Below are positions 6,529-53,038 of a stretch of DNA of 64,000 nt, in pieces. The notes below the pieces were generated by a model. It saw only the letters and a list, made by a program, of their open reading frames with translations, did not search any database and was not told where the DNA came from. Source of the stretch: Barthelona sp. PCE (taxonomy: Eukaryota); contig JAUFOR010000001.1 in assembly GCA_040285745.1 (NCBI GenBank), positions 1,240,001-1,304,000 of the forward strand. Direction: 5' to 3'. The position numbers and the translations under genes were made by a program. Position 1 is the first letter of the stretch. Each line of letters opens with the position of its first letter.

Positions 6529-9500
6529 TCATAACTCATAGTCAGATTCTTCTTCATCATAGACATCTTCTTCAGGTTCAGACAAGAAACCATAGTCAGT
6601 AAATGTCTTACGGGTGTTGCGGCGAGGTTTGTCTTCAGTGATTGGAGTTTCTTGATAGACACTAACATCAGTGACTGGAGTTTCTTGAAAATCGACGCTG
6701 ACTTCAGACATGGGCGTCTCAGGCTCTTCCTTTTTAGGAGTCAAGAAATCAAAAACATTATCATCGTAGCCCATCTTCTTTCTTCCACGTTTGTTACGTA
6801 ATTTCGGTGGCTCCTTGATTGGAGTGACATCGTCAATGTATTCTTCTTCTTCTTCTTCTTCAACCCTTTGCACCTTTTTAGTCTTAGATGATACTTTTCT
6901 CTTGCGCCCCTTGGGTGTGGGAGTAATTTCATTGATTGGAGTGACATCGTCAATGTATTCTTCTTCTTCTTCTTCTTCAACCCTTTGCACCTTTTTAGTC
7001 TTAGATGATACTTTTCTCTTGCGCCCCTTGGGTGTGGGAGTAATTTCATTCATATTGAATGAAAAATCTGAATCAATTAAGTAGTCGTCCAGTTTAACCT
7101 TAGGCTTCTTAGACTTCTTAGACTTCTTAGGCTTCTCAGAAGTGGGGGTTGGTGGCTCGGATAGAACATCTTCAACATCGGAATCAACAACAAATTTGCT
7201 CTTTGAGACATAATGATTAATATCACTTTCAGCTCGATTTGTTAACTTTGAATTCGATACCCTTGTAATAGCAGTCTTAGTTGCCTTGATCTTCTTGGTA
7301 CCATCAATGTTGCGGAAATTAGTAATACCACCTGGATATGAACATTCCGGACGAGATGGAGGTTCTGTAACAACTTCACTGTTCTCATATTCCCAAGCAG
7401 CATAAGCTTCAATAAATGCATTAATCTCTCCACGCCACATCTCCTTGGCCTTGGTATTGAGTAAATCAACAAGCTCTGCGCGCATATCCTCCATTTGTTT
7501 AGTCAGCTCATCCAACTTCTCTTCTGTAAGGTTGAGGATGTTGAGCTTCAAGAGATAATCAAATGCAGTACGAACGTGACTGTTACGCTTAACACTCCAC
7601 TTCTTACCACGGAACATCTTGGGATCAATCTCAGTAATTACTTTATCCTTTTCATCATAGCACGGGAATTTTTCATCAATAAGATCAATACAAATATCTT
7701 GTTTCTTACGTTTGGCTACTATTAACTCATCATCAATGATCATGGATATGAAACGATGTTTAGCTTCTACTAAAACTAAATCTTTTTGGAGCTTATCAAT
7801 GAGATAAGAACGTCGTTCTTCGTATTTTTGAAGACGTTCTTCATAATATTCTGAAATGATTTCTTCAGGAGTGTTGTACAACTGAATAGTGTTGTTAGAG
7901 TTCCACAAAACCATATTACTAACAGCGATATTGTTCGTGAGACCAAAACATTTCTCAAGACCACCATCAGTAGCCTCCGCCAGCGCCATAGATTCCTTCT
8001 TCATGGTGATAGTGTAATCCACAGTGTTATCAGTGTGATTCTCGATGATATCTTCAATGATAACAGATGCCTCGCCCTGCTCATCCTTCTTCTTCTTCTT
8101 CTTCTTAGCCTCAGCGGAAGCTTCTTTCTCCATCATATTTTCCAACGTTTCCTTAAACTTCTCATTCCAGAGACCAACAGGCAACTCTGTAACAGAAATC
8201 TTGGTCGGTGCAATCTTTTCAACAATACCATGTGAACGCCAAGATCCCTCCTTGATCTTTTTGGAGCGCTTCAATTGACGATAAATAAGCTGACACTCCG
8301 TCTTGATACCACGATACCATGGTTTCATAGGTTTCTGCTCTTCACCATCCATTAACATGAAAATGTTTTCAGCAAGTTGCGCTGGGTGATAGGCTGGAAT
8401 GTTAGTTGACCAACCTGTACCAATACCAGTCTGACCATTGAGCAGAACAGTGGGAATAACAGGATAATAGCATTCAGGTTCAACATCCTGGTTGTCCTCC
8501 TTCAAATATTTGAGCAAAGGATCATCACCAGCTGGGAATAGTAGACGTGTGAGCTCACCAAGGCGTGTAAAGATATAACGAGGTGCAGGGTTAGCCTTTG
8601 TACCCTGATGACGTGTACCGAATTGACCTGATGGAATAAGATAAGGGTAGTTGTTACTTCCTGGGAAATCTTGGGCCATACCGATAATAGTGTTTGAAAC
8701 ACTTGCTTCACCATGTTGATAAGCACTGTCCGCAGATATGAGACCTGCGAGTTGTGCAACCTTGTAATCCTTGACGACGTTACGTTTGAACATCGTCCAG
8801 AGAATCTTACGTTGAACCTGTTTTAGACCATCCATTGCGTTGGGAAGTGAACGTTCGTTGTCTGCACGTGAGAATAAAATTAGCTCATGATCAACGAACT
8901 CCTGAACTGAAATGTTGTCGTTGTTATGATCAATAAAGAGAGAAGGATCGTGGTTTAACAACCAGTGCTTACGATCGTCAGTCTTTTTCGGGTTAAACGC
9001 CAAATCTAGACGCTGAGAGGCAAGCACCTTCTCGTATACAAAATCCTTAACGTGAAGGTTGGTGTTGTTGAAGTATTCCTTTGCTTCTTTCGCGGTTGAT
9101 GTGGCGAGACCTTTGTAATACTTAACATCCCACTTATCAGCATCTTCAATATCCTCAATCCACTCTTCGAACTCGTGAACTGTAAAGAAAGAGATGACTT
9201 CGTTGCGTTTACGACATCTGACAATGGGGGTGACGAACTCTTGAAGAAATCCCTTACTCTCAAGTAAACGTGGCCAAAAAACATCAAGCCAATTAATTAA
9301 TAGGCCTTTGATATGAGAACCATCATAATCCTGATCAGTCATGATCATTATTCGACCATAACGAAGTGTACCAGGGCTTGTAGTATTATGCTTAAGACCA
9401 AGAATAACCTTCAAATTATTGAGTTCAACGTTATCACTGATCTTCTTAGCAGATGCTTCACGGACATTCATGAGTTTACCCTTCAGTGGAAACACACCAT

Positions 9501-10959
9501 ACTTATCACGGCCGATGATTGAAAGGCCTGACATTGCTAACTGCTTAGCAGAGTCACCTTCAGTTAATATGAGTGTGCACTGCTTGGCTTTTTTACCGCC
9601 CGCCCAGTTAGCATCCTCCAACTTAGGGATGGAAATCTTGAGCTTCTTTGTCTTACGACCGTCGCTCTTCTTCAAATCTTTTTCTCCAGCACGCTGGAAT
9701 AACATTAGTAAACGATCTTTGAGCATACGACCAAGAGATTTACCGAATTTTTCATCAGCAATGCGGAAACTAGAACCGAAAGTGCTAACCTTACTCTTCA
9801 GAGTCTCTTTGGTTTGTGAACCAAATGTAGGATTTTCAATGAGACATCTAATGAAAATAAACAGTGATGAATTGAGTTGCGTGGGGGTAAGCACTGCAGA
9901 GTTGGCACGTGCTTTACCCAATACAGAGGGAATAGCCTCCTTTAGTTTATCACGAACCTTCTTTTCAACATTTTTGTGATGAGTACCACCCAAAGTAGTC
10001 CAAATAGAATTAACAAATGACATTTGGTTAACTTCTTCAAACGGGTTAGGGGCCACAATAACATCCCATCGATCCATCTCTACCTGTACGTACCATGAAC
10101 CTGTCTTCTTTTCAGTGAACTGTGTCCTAAACATCTTAACGTAATCCTTGAAATTACGAACTGGGAATTTTTCTCCATTAAAGTATACGGAAACTCCATC
10201 ATTACAACCAGCAATATCAAGGCAACGGCGACACATGAGGTCAACATGATCATCATCTAATTCTTCCAAATTAAAACGAGATAGATCGGGTTTGAAGGTG
10301 ATCTTTGTGTATTCAGCCTTTTTGTTTTTGGTGATAGTAGGTTCATTGGCTTCAGACATGTTGTTTGTCCACTCCTGAACGAACTTCTGACCATCACTTA
10401 TTGTTTCAATCTTAAAAAATGTTGAATAAATGTTGGCTAACTTTGCACCATAACCATTACGACCACCAGTTACTCTCTTTTCAGAATCATCATAATTAGA
10501 TGATGTAAGGAGGGTTCCAAAGATCATAGTAGGAATATAACAACCAGCTTTCTCATGATAGACAATAGGGATTCCCTTACCATTATTCTCTACTGATATT
10601 GTACCTGATTCTATATCAATTTCTACCTTAATACGATTCATTTTATGGCATCTCTGCTTGTGATCCGATGCATTGACCAGGATTTCGTCAAATATCTTGA
10701 TGAGACCGGGTGTATAAGTGATTGAACGTAACTCAATTTCAGGAGTTTGCGTTTCCTGACTTGTGCAAACAAATACACTTGCGGTTTCAGGTTCAATAGA
10801 GCCAATATAGGTTTCAGGACGTAATAAAACATGTTCTCTTCCCTCTAATACTTGATATTGTTCTTGGATATCAATTTCCATTGCTGATCCATCGAGTACG
10901 TTTGCATCGACTTCGTCTTTCGCTGTAGAACTACGCTTCTTCTTCTTGCGCGCAGGCAT
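6529..10959 (-). CDS. TOP2: DNA topoisomerase II (type IIA), 1476 aa
   Basis: GHKL motifs EHVLLRPETYIGS, KIFDEILVNA and GGRNGYGAKL. TOPRIM motifs EGDSA, PLKGK and DQDYDGSHIKGL. Catalytic PRYIFT, GIGTGWST, and a charged C-terminal tail. Confidence 0.99.
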   Translation of the reverse strand: MPARKKKKRSSTAKDEVDANVLDGSAMEIDIQEQYQVLEGREHVLLRPETYIGSIEPETASVFVCTSQETQTPEIELRSITYTPGLIKIFDEILVNASDHKQRCHKMNRIKVEIDIESGTISVENNGKGIPIVYHEKAGCYIPTMIFGTLLTSSNYDDSEKRVTGGRNGYGAKLANIYSTFFKIETISDGQKFVQEWTNNMSEANEPTITKNKKAEYTKITFKPDLSRFNLEELDDDHVDLMCRRCLDIAGCNDGVSVYFNGEKFPVRNFKDYVKMFRTQFTEKKTGSWYVQVEMDRWDVIVAPNPFEEVNQMSFVNSIWTTLGGTHHKNVEKKVRDKLKEAIPSVLGKARANSAVLTPTQLNSSLFIFIRCLIENPTFGSQTKETLKSKVSTFGSSFRIADEKFGKSLGRMLKDRLLMLFQRAGEKDLKKSDGRKTKKLKISIPKLEDANWAGGKKAKQCTLILTEGDSAKQLAMSGLSIIGRDKYGVFPLKGKLMNVREASAKKISDNVELNNLKVILGLKHNTTSPGTLRYGRIMIMTDQDYDGSHIKGLLINWLDVFWPRLLESKGFLQEFVTPIVRCRKRNEVISFFTVHEFEEWIEDIEDADKWDVKYYKGLATSTAKEAKEYFNNTNLHVKDFVYEKVLASQRLDLAFNPKKTDDRKHWLLNHDPSLFIDHNNDNISVQEFVDHELILFSRADNERSLPNAMDGLKQVQRKILWTMFKRNVVKDYKVAQLAGLISADSAYQHGEASVSNTIIGMAQDFPGSNNYPYLIPSGQFGTRHQGTKANPAPRYIFTRLGELTRLLFPAGDDPLLKYLKEDNQDVEPECYYPVIPTVLLNGQTGIGTGWSTNIPAYHPAQLAENIFMLMDGEEQKPMKPWYRGIKTECQLIYRQLKRSKKIKEGSWRSHGIVEKIAPTKISVTELPVGLWNEKFKETLENMMEKEASAEAKKKKKKKDEQGEASVIIEDIIENHTDNTVDYTITMKKESMALAEATDGGLEKCFGLTNNIAVSNMVLWNSNNTIQLYNTPEEIISEYYEERLQKYEERRSYLIDKLQKDLVLVEAKHRFISMIIDDELIVAKRKKQDICIDLIDEKFPCYDEKDKVITEIDPKMFRGKKWSVKRNSHVRTAFDYLLKLNILNLTEEKLDELTKQMEDMRAELVDLLNTKAKEMWRGEINAFIEAYAAWEYENSEVVTEPPSRPECSYPGGITNFRNIDGTKKIKATKTAITRVSNSKLTNRAESDINHYVSKSKFVVDSDVEDVLSEPPTPTSEKPKKSKKSKKPKVKLDDYLIDSDFSFNMNEITPTPKGRKRKVSSKTKKVQRVEEEEEEEYIDDVTPINEITPTPKGRKRKVSSKTKKVQRVEEEEEEEYIDDVTPIKEPPKLRNKRGRKKMGYDDNVFDFLTPKKEEPETPMSEVSVDFQETPVTDVSVYQETPITEDKPRRNTRKTFTDYGFLSEPEEDVYDEEESDYEL
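6815..7050. repeat. Perfect 117-bp tandem duplication within the TOP2 C-terminal domain
   Basis: Two copies start at 6815 and 6932 and encode NEITPTPKGRKRKVSSKTKKVQRVEEEEEEEYIDDVTPI twice. Confidence 0.95.
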
Positions 10960-11267
10960 CCTAGATTAGTGAAAAGAAAAGGGGATAATAAACGAAAATC
11001 GCTGCGATTTTTGCATATCAGCATTTATGTACACCATAAAGGGAGTGTTCAACACCTCAGACGCATATGCGGTGCAGATAAGCGGTATCGCAATGGATAA
11101 ATTGAAAACTTTTTCACAGGCAAATTCGTTGCTATTCATTCACACCTACTATTCATTCTCAAAACAGACATTATGCCACACACCAGCCCTTAAACTTGGC
11201 ATTAAAATTTCCACGTACATCAGCAAACTTGTATTCATTTCTTCTTCATTCTTCCAGCTGCTGAATA

Positions 11268-43155: not shown

Positions 43156-44349
43156 ATGAGATCAGTAACGTTGATCTTCTATCTATTACTCACATCTTTC
43201 ATCTTTTCGATGGGAGCTGAGAACAGAGCTGAGAACTGCCGTATGGTTTGTAAGGAGGACTATATGTGTTTTGCCGACTGCTTAATCCCTGATGAGGTTG
43301 AGAATGACTTCCCTGACCTTGTTATTCCCCCTAGTGCTGCCAACGCCGCTTCGAACGGTGGTGGTGTAATTATTAACTATGATACATGCAGGAAGCTTTG
43401 TGGTCGCAGTGGTGTATCCTCTGGACAATGTGTAAGCGTATGTAAGTGGCCTGATGCTCTTGCTAAGGCTACACTCAAGGCAAATGCTATTTGTCGCAGC
43501 CGTGGTGTAGGAACCGGAGCAACGTGTTTTAACTGGCTACTCCGCGCCAATGATGCTGCTAACGCCCGCCCCGCTGCAGCTATGAACGGTCTCTTTTCCT
43601 CAAAGAAGCATTCTACAAAGAAAACTGTTACCGTTGAAGGTTCTAAACAAACCACAACTGTTGCCGAGACAATCGATCTTCCTGGTATGGGTGATTTCAT
43701 CCAGAACCCCTCTCCTGGCTGCAAATGTTCTGATGGTGAGTATACTGATGGTGCTCACTTTAAATTTGGATCATTGGTCGATAAACTACCAATTCAAGTT
43801 GGTGGTCGTCTCTGTGCTCGTTGTGGTATTTTCCAACCCGAAATTGATCCAAAAACTGGTCGTTTCAGAGGTTTGCCACCTACTCCTCTTTACTTCAATG
43901 CTGCATTCTCTGTTAGTGGTAGTGGTGGTAAGACTTATTCAAAGCGTCCCAGTGAGAAAGGTTCGCTTCAGATTGTTGCTAAGAACAAGGTCCTTCAACG
44001 TGTTAAAGACGGTGATAAAGTTGGTTTCTTTGGTGCAGATGGTTCTTTCCGTCGTGTTGAAGCTGGTGTTATTCAAAGTAAGGCTGATAAACCTAAGTCA
44101 CTCGATGGCTGGTACTCATATCTTGAAGCTTCTGAGCATCTTGCCAATAGCGCTTATATTGTTCGCGTAAAGAAGGCTTTCGGAGGTGGTGGTTCCGAAA
44201 TTAGAGATGGTGATAAGGTTGTTCTCTCTGATAAACCGGGTCGTAAGTGTATCCCAGAGCGTAAATTGGTGATGTACATTTCAGGTCGTCCAGTTTACAA
44301 GACAATTTGTGAAAAGGAACTTCCTCAGTTCACCGTTAAAATTTTGTAA
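43156..44349 (+). CDS. Secreted/surface Cys-rich protein, 397 aa
   Basis: Hydrophobic signal peptide MRSVTLIFYLLLTSFIFSMGA, CxxxC motifs, two (V/I)xDGDKV repeats, and strongly biased codons (ggt, gct, aag). Confidence 0.8.
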   Translation: MRSVTLIFYLLLTSFIFSMGAENRAENCRMVCKEDYMCFADCLIPDEVENDFPDLVIPPSAANAASNGGGVIINYDTCRKLCGRSGVSSGQCVSVCKWPDALAKATLKANAICRSRGVGTGATCFNWLLRANDAANARPAAAMNGLFSSKKHSTKKTVTVEGSKQTTTVAETIDLPGMGDFIQNPSPGCKCSDGEYTDGAHFKFGSLVDKLPIQVGGRLCARCGIFQPEIDPKTGRFRGLPPTPLYFNAAFSVSGSGGKTYSKRPSEKGSLQIVAKNKVLQRVKDGDKVGFFGADGSFRRVEAGVIQSKADKPKSLDGWYSYLEASEHLANSAYIVRVKKAFGGGGSEIRDGDKVVLSDKPGRKCIPERKLVMYISGRPVYKTICEKELPQFTVKIL

Positions 44350-44573
44350 TCAGTAAATTGTTTGATTCTAGCTACATGAGAGTTTTGCTTCACTAAATGA
44401 TCTCGTATACTATTTCCCAGATCTCTTTACTCTACAAAATAGCTGAAAACTTGAAAAACTATTGTTTGATACATTCAAGTCATTGATTCACCATAGTTCC
44501 TTCCCTTATTGTAGCGGTAGTAAAGCCTGAAACTTTGATGATTTACAGAGATCTAAGTTTGGGTATGGTGCCA

Positions 44574-44751
44574 GGTCACTGGGGTTGGTGTGCGGAAGTC
44601 CACAAATCCGACCCTCGATACTAATAAATAGGTATAAAATATACAAAAGAAAATAGGTAACCTTGATATAAGTTAACTAAGTGAATTCCACCCTGCTTCG
44701 TGTTCCATTCTCTAATTGTTCATCAATCTGGGATCTTGAGGATCGGTTGCA
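44574..44751. repeat. Direct repeat, copy A (178 bp)
   Basis: Ungapped match to 49961..50138, with 11 mismatches by my count (~94%). Confidence 0.95.
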
Positions 44752-44880
44752 CTACCAGTGAAGTACATGCTTCGATTGTAATTTTAGCAATAATGTTAAT
44801 GTTACACATTATTTTACGCCCAATGTGGACAATTTAGTTACATTTACACATATTTAACAGCTACAAAATCTACCATCAGT

Positions 44881-47800
44881 CTATTGGAACTGCTGCATGC
44901 GTTCCTTCACCTGCTCGAGGGTGACATTTTGTACCGGGGCAACGTTGCACTGACCGTAGTGTCCGCAGTTAGGCGAGAGGCACGAGAAGCAGAACTCGCG
45001 AGCGCACGTGAAGCACTTCATGCTCTTGCACGCTCCACCGTGCTCTATGGGTGTCAGGCAATTCGGACATACGCGCACAGACGGCACACCTGGAATGTTG
45101 TTAAACTCAATAGTTATCAAGGTTGCGTTATGCAAACGGTTGTTGAGCTTGTCTACGTCGTCCTGCGTCCATTGCGAGAGGCGCTGCATGATAAAGAGCT
45201 TGAACTCGTTTGGGAGGATGCCGCGGATGGCGAGAGGGATTCCTTCGCGCAAGCGCAAAACGCTGTTCGGGAGCCTCAACGTTTGATCGCAAAGGGCGAC
45301 AGACGGCAGCATGGTGTCGACGGGTTGTAGAATGACGGTGAACAAGTTCAGTTCGGGCGAGTCGTTGAGCCAGTACACGAACTGCAGCAAATCAAGAGAG
45401 TTGAATCCCTGTAATATTTCTGCTACTGCGTCGCGTATGTTGGTGGGTACACTATCGTCGAATACCAGGGTAGCAAGCACCTGCTCGGTGGTGAAACGAG
45501 GGGGGCCGCACATCATCGCCTTGACTTCAGCGAACGTGAGTTTGACTCCCAGCTGCGATGTCAGCTCATGCGAGTTAAATGCTGCGTTAACCTTCTCCGA
45601 CAGCTCCACATATGGTTCGGATGCGAATTCACGGGCGAACTGCAGGAATTCATCAATGTTATCAGCTGTAACCAACTTGTCCTCACCTCCCAAGAAGTTG
45701 AAGTTCAGGCCGTCGTGCTTCAGCATATTGATGATGTACGCCGACTCGGTCGGGAACACCCTGTAGAAGACTTTTCTATCAGAAAGCTTGTCATAATCTT
45801 CACTGAGCGCATTCAGCAAAAACTGGCCAACCTGAATGTCGTCAACAGGTGTCTGGAACACGAAACAGCAGTACAGGAACCCACACATCGCCTCGATGTG
45901 CTCTTCGGAAGCCGTGGTATCGATGCGGGGCAATGCTCGAAGCTCGAAGATGTGGTCCACGAACTGTGGAATTGAGAGCTGCTCCATACCGTTCAATGTA
46001 ATGGAAGCACCGAAATGTCCATCACCACTCATAAACACGCCAGTATTACTGAACACCCGCACGAAGAATTCATCAAATGTCTGTTCCATCTGAACAAATT
46101 TCGCTGTTCTTTCTGCCACCTCAGTATCACACAATAGCATTTGTTTGCTGACAATAAACTGGTTAATCTGCTGACGGATGAGCTCTAGGCTATCTGAATT
46201 CATAGTATGCTGCCACTCATAGCAGCTCAATTCGTAGATAGTTGGTCTAACACTCATATTATAGGCTTGGCATCGTTCGATGATTACAGAGTGTGCACAG
46301 TTATTTGGCAAAACAAGTTTAGAAGCGTTTGATCTATCTTGAGCATAAATGCATGCGATAGCTCTTCCCAATGATTCAATGGTCTTGGAAACTTTATGTG
46401 TCTTTTGGACATTGCTGCGTGACACCATAGCCGCACCCAAAATGTGTGAACCATCAATACTTATTCCAAAATCACATAATTTGACCCTGGGGTTGGAACC
46501 ATCTTCACTGCAATAAATAAGAACATTCCGAGGTCTGAGATTACGCAATATGATACCGTTAGCGTGCATCGAGAACACAGCCTTGACAAGCTGGTGAGCC
46601 AAATCATTTTTGGTTGCTAATTCTAGAGGGAATGCGCTCAGATACTGTTCAAGATCGTATGATGCGCGCTCGAGCTCTATACACACGAACTTAACAGAGA
46701 TACGGCCTCTTCGCATCTCTGGAACCAGCACAATATTCTTTAGTGCAACAACAAAAGGTTGAAACTTTGATAAAACACGTAATTCCGTTTGTAAAGATTT
46801 AAGATTTTGGTTAAGATCACCTCTAAACTTTTTGGACACACAAACACACTTAATTAGCAGATCATCTCCCTCTATATCATTCTGCAAATCTGCATCAGCA
46901 AGCTCACCGTTCAAATAACTGTCAGAATCGATGATTTTTGGGGTTATTGGTAGTCTGAAGCCAGAGAGATTCAGCTCTTTTAGAGTGGTTGTCAGATCAA
47001 GTGCAAGGGAAAACTTAGCAATGATATCCTTCAACTGTTCAGCACTGTAATCAATAACTTCAAGAAGATGCTTCTTTTCCTGCTTAAAGTGTACGCATGT
47101 GCACGCTGTCGTGTCCGAACGATGACGCCCCAATTGCTTGTGCAGAAAATAGATTAAGTTAAAATCCAGCAGATCAGTTGTGTCTTCATCTTTCGACAGA
47201 GCTTCCCTGAATTCCGTAGCGCGTTGTGTGATCTCTCCAACTTGTTGAACGATGCCGTCCAAAGCCTTACTCTTGTCGCTGAAATGTATGAGCGCTGAGT
47301 GCACCTCAACCAAGTGAAGCTTGTCATACTTATCGAAAACCTTGAAGTAAACATCCAAACTCTGCAGTTCTGTAAGTTTAGCAGCGTAGGAATGCTCGTT
47401 CAAAAACTTAGCAATGGGAAACTGTGCTACCAAATCCGAAAACTTGGAGCTGAAAGTGATGGATAAGGTATCTTCTAACTCAAAATCTAAAATGATGTTT
47501 TTCAGTGAATTAATGAAGTTAATAGCCTGCTCTAGTTCATTCATATGCTGTTCCAACGTATTCACATTGGAGTTAGAAGATATTAAATCAAAAAATGAGT
47601 CAGGTGGCATCTCAAGCTGACGAACGGCGGCAGCACAGTCGTTAACATGCTCCGTCAGCGCACTGTACTCACTGTTACCCGAATTAGGCGTCAGTTGATT
47701 CAATGTATCGAAAACAACCTGTAATTTTGTATCCATCTCCGATTTTTGGTCTTCCATATCCTTCTTCTGCTTCTGCAACTTCATTTCTATCTCTGACTTC

Positions 47801-49293
47801 TGACTCTCAAAATTCATCTGCATCTCAGATTTTTGGTCTTCCATATCCTTCTTCTGCTTCTGCAATTTCATTTCTATTTCTGACTTCTGACTCTCAAAAT
47901 TCATCTGCATTTCAGATTTTTGGTCTTCCATATCCTTCTTCTGCTTCTGCAACTTCATTTCTATCTCTGACTTCTGACTCTCAAAATTCATCTGCATTTC
48001 AGATTTTTGGTCTTCCATATCCTTCTTCTGCTTCTGCAACTTCATTTCTATCTCTGACTTCTGCCTTTCAAACTTTGTGTCCAATTCCAACTTCTGTTCA
48101 CTGATTCTGGAATACAATTCACTAATATCTATAGCGTTACCATAGTTGTTTGTATCACTGTTGCACTTCAAAATACGGCCAAACCCATCATCTTTGGTCC
48201 ACTCAACAAGCATAAACGTGCCATCATCCAATTCAACATGGAACACTGAGTCAGCATCTTTTGTGACATTGACAATAACTCCGTTGTGAGGGTCATGTTT
48301 CTTAGTTATGCAGTTCTCCTTATATATGTAAGCAATTCTCGATGAAAAAAAACAAAGACAGCCATTTTCAACCTTTTTGATAAAGTAGTTTTCTTCACAA
48401 GCAATGACTGATCCACAACAAAAGAACGAGCCAAGTGGAGTATTAGCCTTAATTAAATAATCTTCAACAATATCATACGAAACAGTTGGTCCTGTGCAAT
48501 GCGATGGAACGGTGGCAACTATTTTGCCTTGAACATTATAAATATCCGCCTTTCGAGAACTTCTAATAATTGTGAAGTGCTCTTCATCTGGTGAAATGTA
48601 CACTGCTTCAATTCCGTTTCTGCTATTTTCCCACCACACCGCAGCTAATGTTGATCGGTTATACACCATTGTCTTACCTCCTGACTCACTAGACATCAGA
48701 TAATTCGATGAAATGTCTGCTGAAATTGGATCTATTTGACAGGTATTATTTCTCTTTGCTAAAATATTATTTCCACAATCTGTTAAATAGAGCGTGAATC
48801 CAGTCCAACCTAAAAAAAACATTTCTCCATCACTCTGCTCAACAGCAAAATGACCATAAAACTTCATGGCTGCCTCGCTTGAACCATGAATAAACTTGTG
48901 CACATGGTTAACACTATCTTGAACAAAGATAGCCTCAGAATTGACCCAGCTATTGCTTCCTTTTGTAAAAGTAACATTCGAGATTAAACTTTGCGAGCTT
49001 ATGCAATGTACATGGTAGTCATCACCGTCCTTAAATGCCAGAAATTGTCCGTCAAAACTCAAACAACCATTCTGAACCTCTGAATTGGTAGGTACGGCGT
49101 AAATTTCATCCAATGACGGAATACTGAACACGCGGATGTGACTGGTGTGCACCGTGGCCAACACTCGCTCATCCTTAGATGTCAAAGATACACCGGTGTA
49201 AGGTTCATCAGATAATATCACATCTACGATCTGTTTTTCATCAACCCACTTCACATAAGCACGCCCATCTTCTGTTTTAAGTGCTTTTACCAT
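44881..49293 (-). CDS. Multidomain protein: beta-propeller, coiled-coil repeats, pseudokinase, HECT, RBR RING2/Rcat (1470 aa)
   Basis: WD-like N-terminus (LSFDGQFLAF, ISPDEEHF). Kinase LVKAVFSMHANGIILRNLRPRNVLI and VKLCDFGIS. HECT VTADNIDEF, EVKAMMCGP and LPSVALCDQTLRLP. Rcat CPNCLTPIEHGGACKSMKCFTCAREFCFSCL. Confidence 0.88.
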   Translation of the reverse strand: MVKALKTEDGRAYVKWVDEKQIVDVILSDEPYTGVSLTSKDERVLATVHTSHIRVFSIPSLDEIYAVPTNSEVQNGCLSFDGQFLAFKDGDDYHVHCISSQSLISNVTFTKGSNSWVNSEAIFVQDSVNHVHKFIHGSSEAAMKFYGHFAVEQSDGEMFFLGWTGFTLYLTDCGNNILAKRNNTCQIDPISADISSNYLMSSESGGKTMVYNRSTLAAVWWENSRNGIEAVYISPDEEHFTIIRSSRKADIYNVQGKIVATVPSHCTGPTVSYDIVEDYLIKANTPLGSFFCCGSVIACEENYFIKKVENGCLCFFSSRIAYIYKENCITKKHDPHNGVIVNVTKDADSVFHVELDDGTFMLVEWTKDDGFGRILKCNSDTNNYGNAIDISELYSRISEQKLELDTKFERQKSEIEMKLQKQKKDMEDQKSEMQMNFESQKSEIEMKLQKQKKDMEDQKSEMQMNFESQKSEIEMKLQKQKKDMEDQKSEMQMNFESQKSEIEMKLQKQKKDMEDQKSEMDTKLQVVFDTLNQLTPNSGNSEYSALTEHVNDCAAAVRQLEMPPDSFFDLISSNSNVNTLEQHMNELEQAINFINSLKNIILDFELEDTLSITFSSKFSDLVAQFPIAKFLNEHSYAAKLTELQSLDVYFKVFDKYDKLHLVEVHSALIHFSDKSKALDGIVQQVGEITQRATEFREALSKDEDTTDLLDFNLIYFLHKQLGRHRSDTTACTCVHFKQEKKHLLEVIDYSAEQLKDIIAKFSLALDLTTTLKELNLSGFRLPITPKIIDSDSYLNGELADADLQNDIEGDDLLIKCVCVSKKFRGDLNQNLKSLQTELRVLSKFQPFVVALKNIVLVPEMRRGRISVKFVCIELERASYDLEQYLSAFPLELATKNDLAHQLVKAVFSMHANGIILRNLRPRNVLIYCSEDGSNPRVKLCDFGISIDGSHILGAAMVSRSNVQKTHKVSKTIESLGRAIACIYAQDRSNASKLVLPNNCAHSVIIERCQAYNMSVRPTIYELSCYEWQHTMNSDSLELIRQQINQFIVSKQMLLCDTEVAERTAKFVQMEQTFDEFFVRVFSNTGVFMSGDGHFGASITLNGMEQLSIPQFVDHIFELRALPRIDTTASEEHIEAMCGFLYCCFVFQTPVDDIQVGQFLLNALSEDYDKLSDRKVFYRVFPTESAYIINMLKHDGLNFNFLGGEDKLVTADNIDEFLQFAREFASEPYVELSEKVNAAFNSHELTSQLGVKLTFAEVKAMMCGPPRFTTEQVLATLVFDDSVPTNIRDAVAEILQGFNSLDLLQFVYWLNDSPELNLFTVILQPVDTMLPSVALCDQTLRLPNSVLRLREGIPLAIRGILPNEFKLFIMQRLSQWTQDDVDKLNNRLHNATLITIEFNNIPGVPSVRVCPNCLTPIEHGGACKSMKCFTCAREFCFSCLSPNCGHYGQCNVAPVQNVTLEQVKERMQQFQ
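47734..48062 (-). repeat. 87-bp coding tandem repeat (~3.7 copies; 29-aa unit QKSEIEMKLQKQKKDMEDQKSEMQMNFES)
   Basis: gatttttggtcttccatatcc recurs at 47741, 47828, 47915 and 48002. Confidence 0.95.
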
Positions 49294-49468
49294 GTCGGAT
49301 TAATTATAAATTGCCGGAAAAAGTATTGAGAATTTTTACAACTAAATAGGATGGTTTTCAAATATCCAACTAATCGGAGTATCAATGTGACAGAGCCGTT
49401 CACAGATGCCATCGTCATTGATATTCAGAATGCTATTCAATTTGAGATATAATTCATTTTAAGAATTA

Positions 49469-49720
49469 TCAATTGAAAGAAATTTCAACGCGATTGAACA
49501 CGTGGCTGACGGGTATGACATAATTTTCTTCCAGAGTCTCATCCATGTTAACGGGTAGTAAGGGAGAGTAAACAGATTCTTTACCGAGATCTGAGTTCGG
49601 ATATGGTGCCGCATACGGGCTACCTTCTTCAGAGTTTGGAAATCCATACATCTGAAAAATAGTTTTATTTCAATTACATTACTAAATAATACAATAAAAT
49701 AAATAGGAAACCTTAAAATG
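49469..49720 (-). pseudogene. Relic of a small intron-containing gene (diverged copy C of the repeated unit)
   Basis: YGFPNSEEGSPYAAPYPNSDLGKESVYSPLLP aligns with the minus-strand translation near 44515-44603 (CGLPHTNPSDLAPYPNLDLCKSSKFQALLP). It is preceded by aag|GTTTCCTATTT...TTTTTCAG (49711..49652), the same donor as in copy B. Confidence 0.55.
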
Positions 49721-49849
49721 GTGAGGTGACATACAGGCGCTAGCCTTCAGACTTTATACTTGAGGTAGTAAGCAGCGGAGGGGGACGAAGCGAACCGTCA
49801 TGTGTAGTAGGTGTCCGTAGAACCCGATACGGTTTTTCTTATCCTTTTC

Positions 49850-49950
49850 AAAAAAAAGGGGGTTTTAGGCCACTTCCCGGACGAAACACCCTCTACACGT
49901 GAAGGCGAGCCTTCCCACGTGAGCGTTCCCCGACGTCAATAAACCTACTT
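49850..49950 (-). other. GC-rich hairpin tract followed by T8 (possible structured RNA or element end)
   Basis: Hairpin cacgtg-aaggc-ga-gcctt-cc-cacgtg at 49896..49921. It can be extended on the minus strand by AACGCTC/GGGTGTT pairing with G-U pairs. The A8 at 49850..49857 reads T8 on the minus strand. Confidence 0.3.
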
Positions 49951-49960
49951 CAGTATAAGG

Positions 49961-50138
49961 GGTCACCGAGGTCGGTGTTCGGAAGTCCATAAATCCGACT
50001 CTCGATACTAATAAATAGGTATAAAATATACAAAAGAAAATAGGAAACCTTGATATAAGTGAACTAAGCAAATTCAACCCTGCTTCGTGTTCCATTCTCT
50101 AATTGTTCATCAATCTGGGATCTTGAGGATCGGTTGCA
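49961..50138. repeat. Direct repeat, copy B (178 bp)
   Basis: Matches 44574..44751 at an offset of 5387 bp. Contains a 41-nt GT..AG intron-like segment on the minus strand (50048..50008). Confidence 0.95.
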
Positions 50139-51076
50139 ATAGACCATAAATGACATATAAAAAAAGAATTCTAAAGATTAGAAACAACTAACGATGATTG
50201 AAAATGAAAGTGATGATACTAACTTTTATGGAAAATTGAGGATATTGTATTATGGCTCCAAACATAATTTTAAGACCAAAAATAAAACCAAATCCATGAA
50301 AATCGTTGTAGTGCAAAGGAAAAAGAAAGTTTTTATTATATGATGTTTAGGAGAAACGGGTCTTATTTTTTGGAACTAAAATGAGTGCACATTAGCATCT
50401 AAGCTAAATAGTTTTATTTCTTAGAATATGAGTATGGGAAAAAATTATTAGTTTTTTGCATGCGCTTATAAGAATCAAAAGAATACATTAGCAACTATAT
50501 AACTATATACTAAACTGTTGAATATATGTTTTTGATTATAAATACAGTAAAAGAATGACCTGCTTTTATTAGAACCTGCTTTCTCATTAAAATTCATTTT
50601 TGAATTGTGCAGAATAAGCATTAACATGTCAAAGAAATAAGCTGTTAACTGTCAAAAGAATTGTAACGATATTGTAGATTATTTGTTTTTATTTTAGTAC
50701 TTTAAAGATATATTGAATTTTTGAGGTCTAGGAGAGTTTTATTTGGGTTGTAACTTAGTACCTTATACTTTATTAAAGAAACAACTCAAAAAAACAGAAA
50801 ATTATTAATCATCATTTAAATTCGAAGCATTTCAGGCAAAATTGCTTGTAAAACCTGGGATATCAAAGAAAAGCGCACCATGTTTTTTGCGTACTTTAAT
50901 TCACAAGCAAAGCTGTTTGAAAACAGAATCTAGAGGAAAAACCTTTATTGGGATGATATAGTGTCTTTTTGGGACTTTTAGACCTTTAGTACGCATTTTG
51001 CACACACTAATGTCCACCAGTTGACGAAAAGTACTATGTTTTTTGAATTATTCCCTTTTATAGTATTTTTTAAAGT

Positions 51077-53038
51077 ATGTCAGAACACGAAGATAACGTG
51101 CCTGAGCCTACCATTGCGGAAACACCTCAATCCGAGCTTGAAGTTGACGATGAATCGGTCGAGAAGCTTGTTGCTGAAATTATTGAGAGTACACGTTTGC
51201 AAAAGATGGAAGCGGAGTTTTTGGTTAAGGAAGGAAAACACTTTAACAAGGATAGTTTTTTTGAGATGTTTAGATTAAAGAATTTTTCTGATGTATTATG
51301 TGAGCGCTTTTGGCAAATGATTGATGAAGATGGAAGTGGAGTAGTCAGCGTTGTTGAAGTAGCAAAGATTCAGTCCACAATTGAGTATTCTAATGATGAT
51401 GAAGTTGTTGAGTTCTTCTTCTCACTCTATGATGAGAACGGTGACGGGCAAATTTCTTTCCAAGAAATCTGGTCCGTTTATTCCGGTATGTTAGTTGCCA
51501 ATGGTGATGCAGTTACTGATGAAAAAAGAGATGAACTTTTTGGGAAAATCGATCATTTTGACATCAACAAAGACGGATTTCTTAGTCTTGAAGAGTTTAA
51601 GGATGCCGTTGACAAGCTTCAAGAGGTTTCTAAGGAAGGTAAGAAGAAGAGCAAGTTGTTCTACATTTACCTTTTCATTCTCTCTGCATTGATGGAACTT
51701 TCAACCTCTTTTGGTCTTCCTGCTGTTGGTGCACTTGCTGTTTTCCTCAGCGGTGGTCAAGTTGACGGTGAAGGCCTCACTCGTAATTATTCACTCGAAA
51801 CAATCGCCTCCCTCGCCTCCCTTTACTATCTTTCTGCTATGATTGCACTTTCATTAGGTGCTTTTGTTGAACGTAAAACTAACTGTGGTGTTGCAATGAT
51901 TGTTGGTAACACCCTTGTTCTTCTTGCTAACTTCCTTTGTACTTTTGACAGTATTGCTGTATTTATTATTGGTCGTTTAGTTCTTGGTCTTGGTGGTGAG
52001 ATTATCCCGCCTCAACATTTAATTATGTTTAAAGCAACGTTACCTCCCAAGTTGTTCAATATTGCTGCAGGTTATAGAAACCTTATTCAGGCTTCAACAA
52101 CTGCTGCAGCTTATGTCGTTCTTGCTTGGATGGCTGAGGAGAAATCCGTCGATTATGTTCTTTGGTTTAACACTGCTCTTGGAGGTATTTCACTTGTTAT
52201 CGCTATTCTTGCCTGGATTATTGTTCGTAAGGAGAAGGAAGCTCTTCTTGAAGATGAAAAGTCTGTTGCTCGTTCGTATAAGATGATTGCTCGTACTATT
52301 CAACCTAAAGTCTCTAAGAAATGTTTCTTCAACGTTAGTTCCAATATTTATCTTGCTGCTATTGGAATCAAGGCTTTCTATCTTATTGCTTATGCTCTTC
52401 CTTCTGTTGGTACCGTTGTATTTGTGGAGAAGTTTGGTGTCTCTGCTTCAGAAGCTGGTTCAATTCTTGGTCTTTTAAATTTGGTTGGTGCTCTTGGTTC
52501 TATTCCTGCTGCTATTATTGGTGATAAATTTGGTAACCGTGCTAAGCTTTTTACAGCTTTATTGTTCATTTGTTCAATTTTGTTCTGTCTGCTTGGTATC
52601 TCAACTGATGTATGGCTTCTTTACCTTATCACTATTGTATTTGGTATTGCTTATGCCTTTGGTGATACTCTGGCTTTCACCAGTCTATTCCTTCTCACAC
52701 CAGATCCCAACGAGACTTCAAAGTCTTATGCTCTTTATGGTCTTGTGGGTAACTGTTTGCAATTGGTTATTCCAATTATTGCTTCAACTCTTATTTCAAA
52801 AGGTGAGGAATACTTCTTCTATTTCTTTGCTGTTGTTATTTTCCTATGTTCCCTTTGTTGGCTCAGAATTCGTCTTGCTGTTGGTAGAAAATCCCGTCTT
52901 GAAATGACTCTTGATGAGATTGTTGAAACAAACACAGATGCAGTTAAAGCAGCTCTCTTTTTGGGTAATATTTCCACAGTTGAGCAAATGCAAAGTGTTG
53001 ATGAAGTGGTCGTTATAGATACACCTCGTCCCATGTAA
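51077..53038 (+). CDS. EF-hand domain fused to a major facilitator superfamily transporter (MFSD1-like), 653 aa
   Basis: EF loops DEDGSGVVSVVE, DENGDGQISFQE and DINKDGFLSLEE are followed by ~12 hydrophobic helices with GRLVLGLGGE and IIGDKFGNR (MFS motif-A-like). Confidence 0.9.
   Translation: MSEHEDNVPEPTIAETPQSELEVDDESVEKLVAEIIESTRLQKMEAEFLVKEGKHFNKDSFFEMFRLKNFSDVLCERFWQMIDEDGSGVVSVVEVAKIQSTIEYSNDDEVVEFFFSLYDENGDGQISFQEIWSVYSGMLVANGDAVTDEKRDELFGKIDHFDINKDGFLSLEEFKDAVDKLQEVSKEGKKKSKLFYIYLFILSALMELSTSFGLPAVGALAVFLSGGQVDGEGLTRNYSLETIASLASLYYLSAMIALSLGAFVERKTNCGVAMIVGNTLVLLANFLCTFDSIAVFIIGRLVLGLGGEIIPPQHLIMFKATLPPKLFNIAAGYRNLIQASTTAAAYVVLAWMAEEKSVDYVLWFNTALGGISLVIAILAWIIVRKEKEALLEDEKSVARSYKMIARTIQPKVSKKCFFNVSSNIYLAAIGIKAFYLIAYALPSVGTVVFVEKFGVSASEAGSILGLLNLVGALGSIPAAIIGDKFGNRAKLFTALLFICSILFCLLGISTDVWLLYLITIVFGIAYAFGDTLAFTSLFLLTPDPNETSKSYALYGLVGNCLQLVIPIIASTLISKGEEYFFYFFAVVIFLCSLCWLRIRLAVGRKSRLEMTLDEIVETNTDAVKAALFLGNISTVEQMQSVDEVVVIDTPRPM

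What the first reader, a model, noticed from the sequence alone, without database searches (positions are those of the whole stretch)
44574..50138. The E3/pseudokinase gene sits in a 5.6-kb cassette bounded by 178-bp direct repeats
Seen: 44574..44751 and 49961..50138 are ungapped direct repeats (~94% identical), the only long dispersed repeat I found in the window. They bracket exactly one intact gene in an unusually gene-poor stretch. No transposase, reverse transcriptase or integrase is present, and on the minus strand both repeats begin TGCA but do not end CA. Inference: this is a mobile or amplifiable cassette. Possible origins are Campbell-type integration of a circular intermediate, a non-autonomous element carrying cargo, or a collapsed tandem array. 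It could spread kinase/E3 paralogs through the genome.
Basis: partly seen in the sequence, partly recalled or inferred. Interest (0 to 1): 0.72.

Follow-up and report, generated by a model that had tools for sequence, protein, structure and literature searches.

The report
Recombination leftovers flanking a duplicated kinase gene
The two 180-base repeats around this kinase/ubiquitin-ligase-like gene are real, but they look like leftovers of ordinary recombination-driven duplication in a fast-shuffling gene family of a tiny protist genome, not the ends of a jumping element.

Summary
The repeat pair is real: 44574-44754 and 49961-50141, 181 nt, 12 differences, BLAST E 2.5e-75. It is the only dispersed repeat of 40 nt or more in the window.

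It is part of something larger. A further 31 nt (44542-44572 ~ 49580-49610, 87%) abuts the left copy but lies 350 nt from the right copy. The right locus holds two old tandem copies (u1, u2, period ~338 nt) of one short unit. The left copy is a u1/u2 hybrid lacking ~349 nt.

No mobile-element hallmarks were found: no TG..CA ends, target-site duplication, terminal inverted repeats, PBS/PPT, or transposase/RT/integrase relic. The repeat shows no coding constraint.

By the source names of its closest homologues, the window is Barthelona sp. PCE (10.2 Mb). The gene belongs to a family seen at 16 or more dispersed loci. Family members show mosaic identity and exact partial copies, and this gene has a GC3-rich 3' end.

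Best reading: leftovers of homologous-recombination-based segmental duplication. A repeat-mediated excisable cassette is not excluded. The decisive genome-wide and read-level tests could not be run, because no genome or reads were available.

The parts
44542..44572 (-). A_L: 31-nt block homologous to 49580-49610 (27/31 identical), 1 nt from B_L. Weak homology may fade on for ~60 nt further (to ~44482).
   Evidence: BLAST E 9e-5. Local alignment score 42 against shuffles 18.6+/-2.4, 0 of 300 reaching it. Anchored extension beyond it: 5 of 200 shuffles reach the score.
44574..44754 (-). B_L: downstream (left) copy of the 181-nt repeat, 127 nt past the gene's stop codon. Together with A_L it forms a hybrid of the u1 5' part and the u2 3' part.
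   Evidence: Three-way alignment and nhmmer E 1.5e-40.
44755..44880 (-). Spacer between the gene's stop codon (44881-44883) and B_L. It is not homologous to the sequence upstream of B_R.
   Evidence: Local alignment no better than shuffles (46 of 300 reach it). Anchored test 19-42 of 200.
44881..49293 (-). The single intact gene. It encodes 1470 aa: an N-terminal region with weak beta-propeller matches in one paralog, a coiled coil with 29-aa repeats, a protein-kinase domain (LRN in place of LRD at the catalytic-loop position), a conserved C-terminal region, and an IBR-like Cys-rich end.
   Evidence: ORF. Pkinase E 5.9e-10 and IBR E 2.6e-4, the latter below Pfam's cutoff. Family counts: Pkinase 14/14, IBR 11/14, HECT 2/14. 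Motifs. PDB kinases.
47734..48072 (-). 87-nt (29-aa) tandem array inside the gene's coiled coil, 3.9 copies at 96% matches. The closest paralog P0003 lacks about 2-3 units.
   Evidence: Gaps in the P0001/P0003 alignment.
49472..49651 (-). 60-codon ORF (MYGFPN...) overlapping A_R and the tail upstream of the gene. No support as a gene.
   Evidence: No protein of 33-105 aa shares words with it, not even itself, whereas the window's annotated proteins do find themselves. The exact sequence is not in the collection. No Pfam match.
49580..49610 (-). A_R: right-hand partner of A_L, at the 3' part of sub-unit u2.
49611..49960 (-). I: 350 nt present only in the right locus (GC 0.43). It carries most of sub-unit u2 (core 49613-49724). 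It is best read as sequence deleted from the left copy, not inserted in the right one.
   Evidence: No target-site duplication at its ends.
49961..50141 (-). B_R: upstream (right) copy of the 181-nt repeat. It contains the core of sub-unit u1 (49955-50062).
50142..51076 (.). 935-nt AT-rich (GC 0.276) ORF-free stretch between B_R and the divergently oriented MFS/EF-hand transporter gene (ATG 51077). Not homologous to anything else in the window.

Best explanation
The repeats are not the ends of an element. They are the best-preserved parts of a short, non-coding (or decayed) unit 'u' that occurs three times in the window.

- Two old copies in tandem (u1, u2, period ~338 nt) sit 290-850 nt upstream of the kinase/IBR gene.
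- One hybrid copy sits 127 nt downstream of its stop codon.

Inferred history:
1. An old tandem duplication produced u1 and u2.
2. Much later (about 7% divergence ago), a block of at least 562 nt (u1-u2, 49580-50141) came to flank the gene on both sides. This happened through homologous-recombination-type segmental duplication. The two routes are a tandem duplication of the ~5.7-kb unit followed by loss of the second gene copy, or ectopic recombination or template switching during one of the family's duplications.
3. The downstream copy lost ~349 nt by recombination or deletion between u1 and u2.

What is shown: the anatomy, the absence of transposon hallmarks, the lack of coding constraint, and the recombining nature of the gene family. 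What is inferred: the order of events and the mechanism. The two copies could still serve as substrates for pop-out or unequal crossing-over. That would be a passive property of any direct repeat, not a dedicated mobility system.
For: Anatomy:
- The homology is B (181 nt, 93%) plus A (31 nt, 87%). These are contiguous on the left and 350 nt apart on the right.
- Inside the right locus, u1 (50062->49955) aligns with u2 (49724->49613) with score 28, against 11.4+/-1.8 in 300 shuffles (max 17).
- The 14-mer AAGGTTTCCTATTT occurs with 1 mismatch or fewer only at these three places.
- A profile of the three copies finds only them in 64 kb (E 1e-31 to 1.5e-40; next best E 2.5).
- The three-way alignment shows the left copy following u1 up to GTGACC and u2 from GGCACC onward.
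- A_L/A_R divergence (4/31) is compatible with B_L/B_R (12/181), so one duplication plus one deletion suffices.

No element hallmarks.

No coding constraint on B. The 12 differences include 7 transitions. No open frame has an excess of synonymous changes. All 6 differences in the YGLPN-frame stretch of B, downstream of the intron-like tract, are non-synonymous (read by me from the sequences).

The family recombines:
- P0001 vs P0003 is 97-100% identical over residues 401-700 and 801-1100 (93% at 701-800), but 69-91% over 1-400 and 85-91% over 1101-1300.
- P0004 is 96% identical over 1301-1472 but 48-64% over 701-1100.
- P0013 is 96% identical over 301-400.
- GC3 rises from 0.29-0.42 (residues 1-400) to 0.57-0.75 (residues 1101-1470), while 20 of 20 other genes in the window have GC3 0.21-0.38.
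- P0169 (212 aa) is 100% identical to the C-terminus of P0168, whose locus tag differs by 111. P0013 is a 93% copy of P0168 that lacks that end.

Recency. The L repeat lies in a 531-nt gap between convergent stop codons, where 6 of 8 such pairs in the window have 63 nt or less. Such bloat in a very compact genome fits a recent rearrangement.
Against: The key test could not be done: whether the unit occurs next to other family members or elsewhere in the genome. The choice between 'passive leftover' and 'recurrent cassette' therefore rests on local anatomy only.

The tandem-duplication route needs two events (duplication, then loss of the second gene copy). Homologous integration of a circle needs only one.

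The left neighbour (397 aa) has no paralog in the collection. The boundary of whatever duplicated this gene therefore falls within the ~530 nt that hold the left repeat. That coincidence is what a cassette model predicts.

Weak homology may continue ~60 nt beyond A (5 of 200 shuffles reach the score). If real, it would mean the two copies are old and only their cores were recently homogenised by gene conversion, a different history from the one proposed.

The last 62 nt and a 44-nt internal tract are identical in both copies, which could reflect function rather than chance.
Confidence: 0.55

Rival explanations
1. Repeat-mediated, transposase-free cassette. The u-block acts as a homology handle. 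The gene with one handle loops out as a ~5.4-5.7-kb circle by recombination between the direct repeats, and re-enters the genome at another u-block (Campbell-type). Alternatively it is amplified, as Leishmania does between dispersed repeats. This would explain the dispersal of the family.
For: Direct repeats bracket exactly one gene. The family has 16 or more loci on all 8 contig sizes seen, with no adjacent locus tags, including copies at 90% or more and an exact partial copy. The left neighbour is not duplicated, so a duplication boundary lies in the interval that holds the left repeat. Identity blocks of 62 and 44 nt remain available for recombination. The precedent is Leishmania amplification at direct repeats (PMC4028189; search listing and start of abstract seen).
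Against: No second locus could be inspected. The two copies differ by 6.6%, and one has lost ~349 nt, so nothing indicates recent cycling. The unit does not occur elsewhere in the 64 kb. The published assembly is only 4.46% repetitive (PMC11316075, section 6). Mosaic identity among paralogs is explained by gene conversion without any cassette.
Confidence: 0.2
2. The conserved unit is functional in its own right, as a small spliced gene, a regulatory module or an unrecognised small RNA. It is kept in two or three copies. Its position around the kinase gene is incidental or regulatory.
For: A 62-nt and a 44-nt tract are identical between copies. u1 and u2 share a peptide-like motif in one frame (I/M-Y-G-L/F-P-N-T/S-D/E-x-G-D/S-P; my reading), preceded by an intron-like GT...pyrimidine-rich...AG tract. 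The left hybrid junction keeps that frame. On the plus strand a 9-bp stem tolerates 3 one-sided changes as G-U/G-C/A-U.
Against: No Rfam or tRNA match. There were no compensatory double changes (0 of 48 and 0 of 41 predicted pairs). Substitutions show no synonymous excess in any open frame, and the left copy carries extra stops. No protein in the collection matches the ORFs, although the window's annotated proteins are there. No Pfam match.
Confidence: 0.1
3. Degenerate LTR retrotransposon or other non-autonomous transposable element that captured a host gene, with the 181-nt copies as its terminal repeats.
For: Direct terminal repeats ~5.4 kb apart, which is LTR-element size. The minus-strand copies start with TG.
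Against: The copies end GACC, not CA. There is no target-site duplication, no PBS-like or polypurine tract, and no inverted termini. There is no RT, RNase H, integrase, gag or transposase signal in the gene or in 55 flank pieces (best E 0.03, all below cutoffs). The homology continues outside the supposed LTR as block A, in a different arrangement at each end. The interior is an ordinary member of a host gene family along its whole length.
Confidence: 0.03
4. Assembly artefact: a falsely duplicated segment in a long-read assembly.
For: The assembly is Nanopore-based (PMC11316075, section 6).
Against: The copies differ at 12 positions and by a 349-350-nt indel, and they sit in different flanks. 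The assembly was polished with 308x Illumina data.
Confidence: 0.02

Closest known systems
Segmental or tandem gene duplication with later partial deletion, and ectopic gene conversion in multigene families (concerted evolution). General knowledge, not from a call.
   Same: Collinear direct copies without element termini. A secondary deletion between older sub-repeats. Paralogs with mosaic identity tracts. GC3 enrichment where paralogs are most alike. Exact partial copies elsewhere.
   Different: Only a ~0.2-0.6-kb flank is duplicated around a single gene copy, not a visible tandem pair of genes. The host is a 10.2-Mb, 4.46%-repeat genome, where such leftovers are expected to be purged quickly.
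Leishmania amplification at dispersed direct or inverted repeats (PMC4028189; search listing and start of abstract seen)
   Same: Short non-coding direct repeats flanking genes, with no transposase. In principle they permit circular excision or amplification by homologous recombination.
   Different: In Leishmania the repeats are a genome-wide family and the amplicons have been observed. Here there is a single pair, genomic copy number is unknown, there is no evidence of circles, and the copies are 6.6% diverged with one rearranged.
LTR retrotransposons and solo LTRs
   Same: Two direct repeats a few kb apart. The repeat length is within the range of short LTRs.
   Different: No TG..CA ends, target-site duplication, PBS, PPT, or gag/pol. 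Homology extends beyond the 'LTR' asymmetrically.
Protein kinases fused to RBR-type (IBR/Rcat-like) ubiquitin-ligase modules. Domain families Pfam PF00069 and PF01485.
   Same: The enclosed gene has a kinase domain with the beta3 Lys, alphaC Glu and DFG motifs. Its C-terminal end is Cys-rich and IBR-like: CPxC...C.S.KC..C...FCF.CL.
   Different: The architecture was found only in Barthelona sp. PCE. Of 15 hits, one is the protein itself, 13 are from this species, and one is a distant kinase-only hit. This copy has Asn at the catalytic Asp position. The IBR score is below Pfam's cutoff in this copy. No RING1 was detected.

Membership tests
LTR retrotransposon (LTR pair) | LTRs begin TG and end CA | tested here: not met
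   In minus orientation the copies begin TGCAACC and end GTGACC. In plus orientation they begin GGTCAC and end TTGCA.
LTR retrotransposon (LTR pair) | 4-6-bp target-site duplication immediately outside the pair | tested here: not met
   No shared k-mer of 4 nt or more within +/-3 nt of the outer boundaries, for B alone or for A+B.
LTR retrotransposon (LTR pair) | Primer-binding site after the 5' LTR and polypurine tract before the 3' LTR | tested here: not met
   The flanks printed (CCTTATACTGAAG... and ...ACTTCACTGG in minus orientation; CCAGTGAAGT... and ...CAGTATAAGG in plus) show neither a TGG-type PBS nor a purine run. Judged by eye.
LTR retrotransposon (LTR pair) | Internal gag/pol (RT, RNase H, integrase) or relics | tested here: not met
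   Pfam on the 1472-aa ORF gives only Pkinase and IBR. In 55 stop-free pieces of 25 aa or more from the flanks, nothing reaches a cutoff (best E 0.03).
DNA transposon / MITE-like non-autonomous element | Terminal inverted repeats and target-site duplication | tested here: not met
   9 inverted pairs of 14-23 nt in 44300-50400, none at the ends of the unit or of either copy. No TSD for either copy treated as a solo element, except one 4-nt coincidence.
Repeat-mediated excisable/amplifiable cassette (Leishmania-type or Campbell-type) | Direct repeats flanking the cargo | tested here: met
   181 nt at 93%, 5387 nt start to start, one gene between.
Repeat-mediated excisable/amplifiable cassette (Leishmania-type or Campbell-type) | The repeat recurs at other loci (donor and target sites, other family members) | not testable with these tools
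   No genome is held for the window. There are no other copies in the 64 kb. The 26-mer scans of metagenome and prokaryote collections gave 0, but these do not hold this genome.
Repeat-mediated excisable/amplifiable cassette (Leishmania-type or Campbell-type) | Physical evidence of circles, solo-repeat alleles or tandem arrays in reads | not testable with these tools
   No sequencing run could be listed for the stretch, so nothing could be laid on it.
Segmental duplication remnant | Collinear homologous blocks in the same order and orientation, ending without element termini; differences explained by simple indels | tested here: met
   B then A in the same order and strand at both loci. A single ~349-nt indel whose content is an older sub-repeat. 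Flanks outside are unrelated.
Protein kinase (Pfam PF00069), active enzyme | Kinase fold with beta3 Lys, alphaC Glu, catalytic-loop Asp and DFG | tested here: inconclusive
   Domain hit E 5.9e-10, above the cutoff. Lys and Glu are present in 14/14 paralogs. DFG is present in this copy. The catalytic-loop Asp is Asn in this copy (LRN), while 12 of 14 paralogs have Asp. This copy is therefore likely a pseudokinase. Activity was not assayed.
RBR/IBR-type E3 ligase module (Pfam PF01485) | IBR/Rcat Cys-His pattern scoring above the family cutoff; RING1 present | tested here: inconclusive
   IBR scores 21.4 bits against a cutoff of 24.3 in this copy. 11 of 14 paralogs match at E <= 0.01, best 4.6e-6. 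Cys pattern conserved in the 11 of 14 paralogs that have this C-terminal region in the alignment. No RING1 hit. HECT was seen in only 2 of 14.

The most novel reading that the evidence does not exclude
The u-block is the homology handle of a transposase-free gene cassette. The kinase/IBR gene plus one handle loops out as a circle by recombination between the flanking repeats and re-integrates at other u-blocks. This would be the means by which a family with 16 or more loci spreads and keeps exchanging segments in the smallest known free-living eukaryotic genome.
Probability: 0.12. Interest if true: 0.65.

Novelty: new member of a known kind. Interest (0 to 1): 0.3.

Why it matters
Barthelona sp. 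PCE is reported as the smallest genome of a free-living eukaryote (10.2 Mb, 4.46% repetitive; PMC11316075, section 6). In so compact a genome, a lineage-specific kinase/IBR family seen at 16 or more loci stands out, because it is visibly duplicating, exchanging tracts and leaving recombination scars. It shows where genome growth still happens, and by what means: homologous recombination rather than transposons. If the flanking unit turned out to recur at other family loci, it would document a transposase-free way of moving genes. As it stands, the finding is an ordinary duplication scar with a useful worked-out anatomy.

Tried and rejected
Whole-genome search for the repeat: no genome is held for this window.

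Sequencing runs: none was listed for 44300-50400, and no RNA holder was listed. Read depth, empty-site alleles, circles and splicing could therefore not be examined, and read laying was not used.

Collection scans: exact 26-mer scans of the repeat core found 0 matches in metagenome contigs and 0 in genome contigs. A protein-pattern scan of metagenome contigs with the family alignment gave 104 pattern matches, none confirmed by tblastn.

Earlier findings of this scan: nothing for this genome, the repeat or P0003.

RNA families and tRNAs: Rfam at gathering thresholds over the window and ARAGORN found nothing. Permissive Rfam over both repeat loci gave only a chance-level lncRNA match (E 4.4).

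Consensus folding of both strands: no compensatory changes.

Telomere-like 8-mer next to B_R: it matches part of the published telomere unit, but it is at chance frequency (2 matches against 1.77 expected).

Small ORFs in the unit as a gene: no homologues and no self-match, and no coding signature.

Intron-like 14-mer as a general splice consensus: it is confined to the three u copies plus two 2-mismatch chance hits.

The right neighbour (MFS/EF-hand) as a marker of a wider duplication: the next best representative is 31% identical. That library collapses anything above 50% identity, so a close paralog could be hidden.

LTR, MITE and assembly-artefact readings were rejected for the reasons given under the rival explanations.
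Full report
**1. Observation**

There are 11 mismatches in 178 nt. The match extends to 181 nt (44574-44754 vs 49961-50141) with 12 differences. BLAST gives 93.4% identity and E 2.5e-75 within the window.

Three direct-repeat families of 40 nt or more exist in the 64 kb, and this is the only dispersed one. The others are an 87-nt tandem array inside the enclosed gene and a 117-nt tandem pair at 6812-7045.

One long ORF lies between the copies: 44881..49299 on the minus strand, with its ATG at 49293, encoding 1470 aa.

The stretch is gene-poor by the window's standards. The 1774-nt gap 49299->51074 is the largest between ORFs of 150 aa or more, and the next largest is 643 nt. The left repeat sits in a 531-nt gap between convergent stop codons, where 6 of 8 such pairs in the window are 63 nt or less apart.

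**2. Organism and gene**

The window encodes eukaryotic housekeeping proteins as long, uninterrupted, tightly packed ORFs. These include topoisomerase II, Ku, a PAN2-like UCH/exonuclease, F-actin capping beta and adaptin.

The enclosed protein finds itself plus 13 proteins, all named as hypothetical proteins of Barthelona sp. PCE, and one distant JGI kinase (15 hits). The contig lengths attached to those hits add up to the published 8-contig, 10.2-Mb assembly. That assembly is described as the smallest genome of a free-living eukaryote and as 4.46% repetitive (PMC11316075, section 6 read).

The protein has:
- a kinase domain (Pfam E 5.9e-10; PDB kinases with the family profile);
- a C-terminal IBR-like Cys pattern, which scores below Pfam's cutoff in this copy but matches in 11 of 14 paralogs.

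HECT was seen in only 2 of 14 paralogs. This copy has Asn where 12 of 14 paralogs have the catalytic-loop Asp. The beta3 Lys and alphaC Glu are present in 14 of 14. 'E3-like/pseudokinase' is therefore a fair label for this copy.

**3. Anatomy of the repeats**

Taking the gene's own (minus) orientation, the order is:
- B_R (50141->49961)
- a 350-nt stretch I (49960->49611)
- a 31-nt block A_R (49610->49580)
- ~290 nt, then the gene (49293->44881, stop codon included)
- a 127-nt spacer
- B_L (44754->44574), then one base
- A_L (44572->44542)

A_L and A_R are 27/31 identical (E 9e-5). In a local alignment, 0 of 300 shuffles reach the score. The homology is therefore B+A, and the right locus carries ~349 nt more.

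The extra stretch is not foreign. u1 (50062->49955, mostly inside B_R) aligns with u2 (49724->49613, inside I) with score 28, against 11.4+/-1.8 for shuffles. The 14-mer AAGGTTTCCTATTT occurs with 1 mismatch or fewer only in u1, u2 and the left copy.

A profile of the three copies finds only these three in the window (E 1e-31 to 1.5e-40; next best E 2.5). In the three-way alignment the left copy follows u1 up to GTGACC and follows u2 from GGCACC onward.

The simplest history has three steps:
1. An old tandem duplication produced u1 and u2 (about two thirds identical over the ~35-nt stretch I counted by hand).
2. A much later duplication placed a block of at least 562 nt, u1-u2, on both sides of the gene.
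3. A ~349-nt deletion between u1 and u2 occurred in the downstream copy.

An insertion of I into the right copy is less likely. I contains a diverged homologue of its neighbour, and there is no target-site duplication at its ends.

Outside B+A the flanks are unrelated. For the sequence beyond A, 109 of 300 shuffles reach the score, and for the sequence upstream of B, 46 of 300 do. An alignment anchored at the end of A gives a marginal signal for ~60 nt more (5 of 200 shuffles reach it). If real, this would point to older copies whose cores were recently homogenised.

**4. What the repeat is not**

Not an LTR pair or a transposon end:
- There are no TG..CA ends.
- There is no target-site duplication at any of seven boundary sets, apart from one 4-nt coincidence.
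- No PBS-like or purine-rich tract lies next to the copies (by eye).
- There are no terminal inverted repeats.
- No transposase, RT or integrase signal was found in the gene or in 55 stop-free pieces of the flanks (best E 0.03, all below cutoffs).

Not a recognised RNA:
- Rfam and ARAGORN found nothing.
- Consensus folds show no compensatory change.

Not demonstrably coding:
- Of the 12 differences, 7 are transitions, and no open frame shows a synonymous excess.
- The left copy has additional stops.
- The ORFs in the unit have no homologue and no self-match in a collection that does hold the window's annotated proteins.

There are hints of an ancestral small exon-intron-exon unit, namely a shared YG[LF]PN-type motif after an intron-like tract. 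This is my reading and is not supported by any expression data.

**5. The family context**

The 13 named paralogs, plus two more from a 90% cluster and the window's copy, make 16 loci or more. They carry non-adjacent locus tags and lie on contigs of all eight lengths, counting the window's own.

Identity is strongly mosaic:
- The closest paralog, P0003 (on the 134-kb contig), is 97-100% identical over residues 401-700 and 801-1100 (93% at 701-800), but 69-91% over 1-400 and 85-91% over 1101-1300.
- P0004 is 96% identical at the C-terminal 170 residues but 48-64% in the kinase region.
- P0013 is the best match (96%) over residues 301-400.

P0169 is a 212-aa protein 100% identical to the C-terminus of P0168, whose locus tag differs by 111. 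P0013 is a 93% copy of P0168 without that end.

Along the window's gene, GC3 climbs from 0.29-0.42 to 0.57-0.75 in the part that is most alike among paralogs. All 20 other genes in the window have GC3 of 0.21-0.38. I read these three signals together as ectopic gene conversion and recombination among dispersed paralogs. This is an inference, and GC-biased gene conversion is the textbook explanation rather than something tested here.

The 397-aa left neighbour has no paralog. The duplication that produced this gene or P0003 therefore did not include it, and P0003's contig is not an alternative haplotype of this locus.

**6. Explanation and rivals**

Best explanation (0.55): the repeats are scars and by-products of homologous-recombination-type segmental duplication in a recombining gene family, followed by a secondary deletion. 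They are not part of a dedicated mobility system.

It predicts the same local structure and is favoured by needing one event and by the duplication boundary falling where the left repeat lies. No second locus or read could be inspected. The copies are 6.6% diverged, and one is rearranged.

Other rivals are a functional small gene or RNA (0.1), a degenerate LTR or other transposable element (0.03), and an assembly artefact (0.02).

**7. Comparison, novelty, limits**

The closest known phenomena are ordinary segmental duplication with concerted evolution and, as a functional analogy only, repeat-mediated amplification in Leishmania (PMC4028189; listing and start of abstract seen).

I rate this a new member of a known kind, with modest interest. 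The interest lies mostly in the setting: an actively duplicating, lineage-specific kinase/IBR family in a 10.2-Mb genome.

These are genome-wide BLAST of the unit, read-level evidence and synteny in relatives. No genome, run or related locus was obtainable. Supplementary files of PMC11316075 were not consulted and may hold repeat or intron annotation that bears on this locus.

Noticed in passing
window 44881-49293 (-): GC3 along the kinase/IBR gene rises from 0.29-0.42 (residues 1-400) to 0.57-0.75 (residues 1101-1470). All 20 other genes in the window have GC3 of 0.21-0.38. The GC3-rich part is the part most alike among paralogs, as GC-biased gene conversion would produce.
   Followed up: partly
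proteins P0001, P0003, P0004, P0013, P0168, P0169 (Barthelona sp. PCE paralogs): Identity between paralogs is mosaic: 97-100% tracts sit next to 50-90% tracts, and different paralogs are the closest match in different segments. P0169 (212 aa) is an exact copy of the C-terminus of P0168 at a distant locus on the same contig. P0013 is a 93% copy of P0168 lacking that end.
   Followed up: partly
window 47734-48072 (-): An 87-nt (29-aa) tandem array lies in the coiled-coil region, with 3.9 copies at 96% matches. The closest paralog P0003 has fewer units, which accounts for most of its 57-residue shorter length.
   Followed up: partly
window 46534-46542 region (residues 918-920 of the protein): This copy reads LRN where 12 of 14 paralogs, including the 97-98%-identical P0003 in this segment, read L[RL]D at the kinase catalytic loop. 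This is a recent loss of the catalytic Asp in this copy only.
   Followed up: partly
window 50142-51076: A 935-nt stretch is very AT-rich (GC 0.276) and ORF-free. It lies between the right repeat and the divergent MFS/EF-hand transporter gene. It has no Pfam relic and no similarity elsewhere in the window, and is unusually long for this compact genome.
   Followed up: partly
window 6812-7045: Two tandem copies of a 117-nt unit, 99% identical, lie inside the 3' (C-terminal) part of the topoisomerase II ORF at 6529..10965 (-).
   Followed up: no
window 53081-64000 (-): An uninterrupted ORF of at least 3639 codons runs off the window end. It has no Pfam match at E <= 0.001.
   Followed up: no
window 51077-53035 (+): A fusion of EF-hand pairs (N-terminal ~180 aa) with a Major Facilitator Superfamily transporter. 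The closest representatives elsewhere are only ~30% identical.
   Followed up: no
window 44580-44617 and 49967-50004 (+ strand): A predicted 9-bp stem with one bulge lies within the repeat. Three of the 12 differences between copies fall in its 5' arm, and all keep pairing on the plus strand (G-U vs G-C/A-U). There are too few sequences to judge.
   Followed up: no
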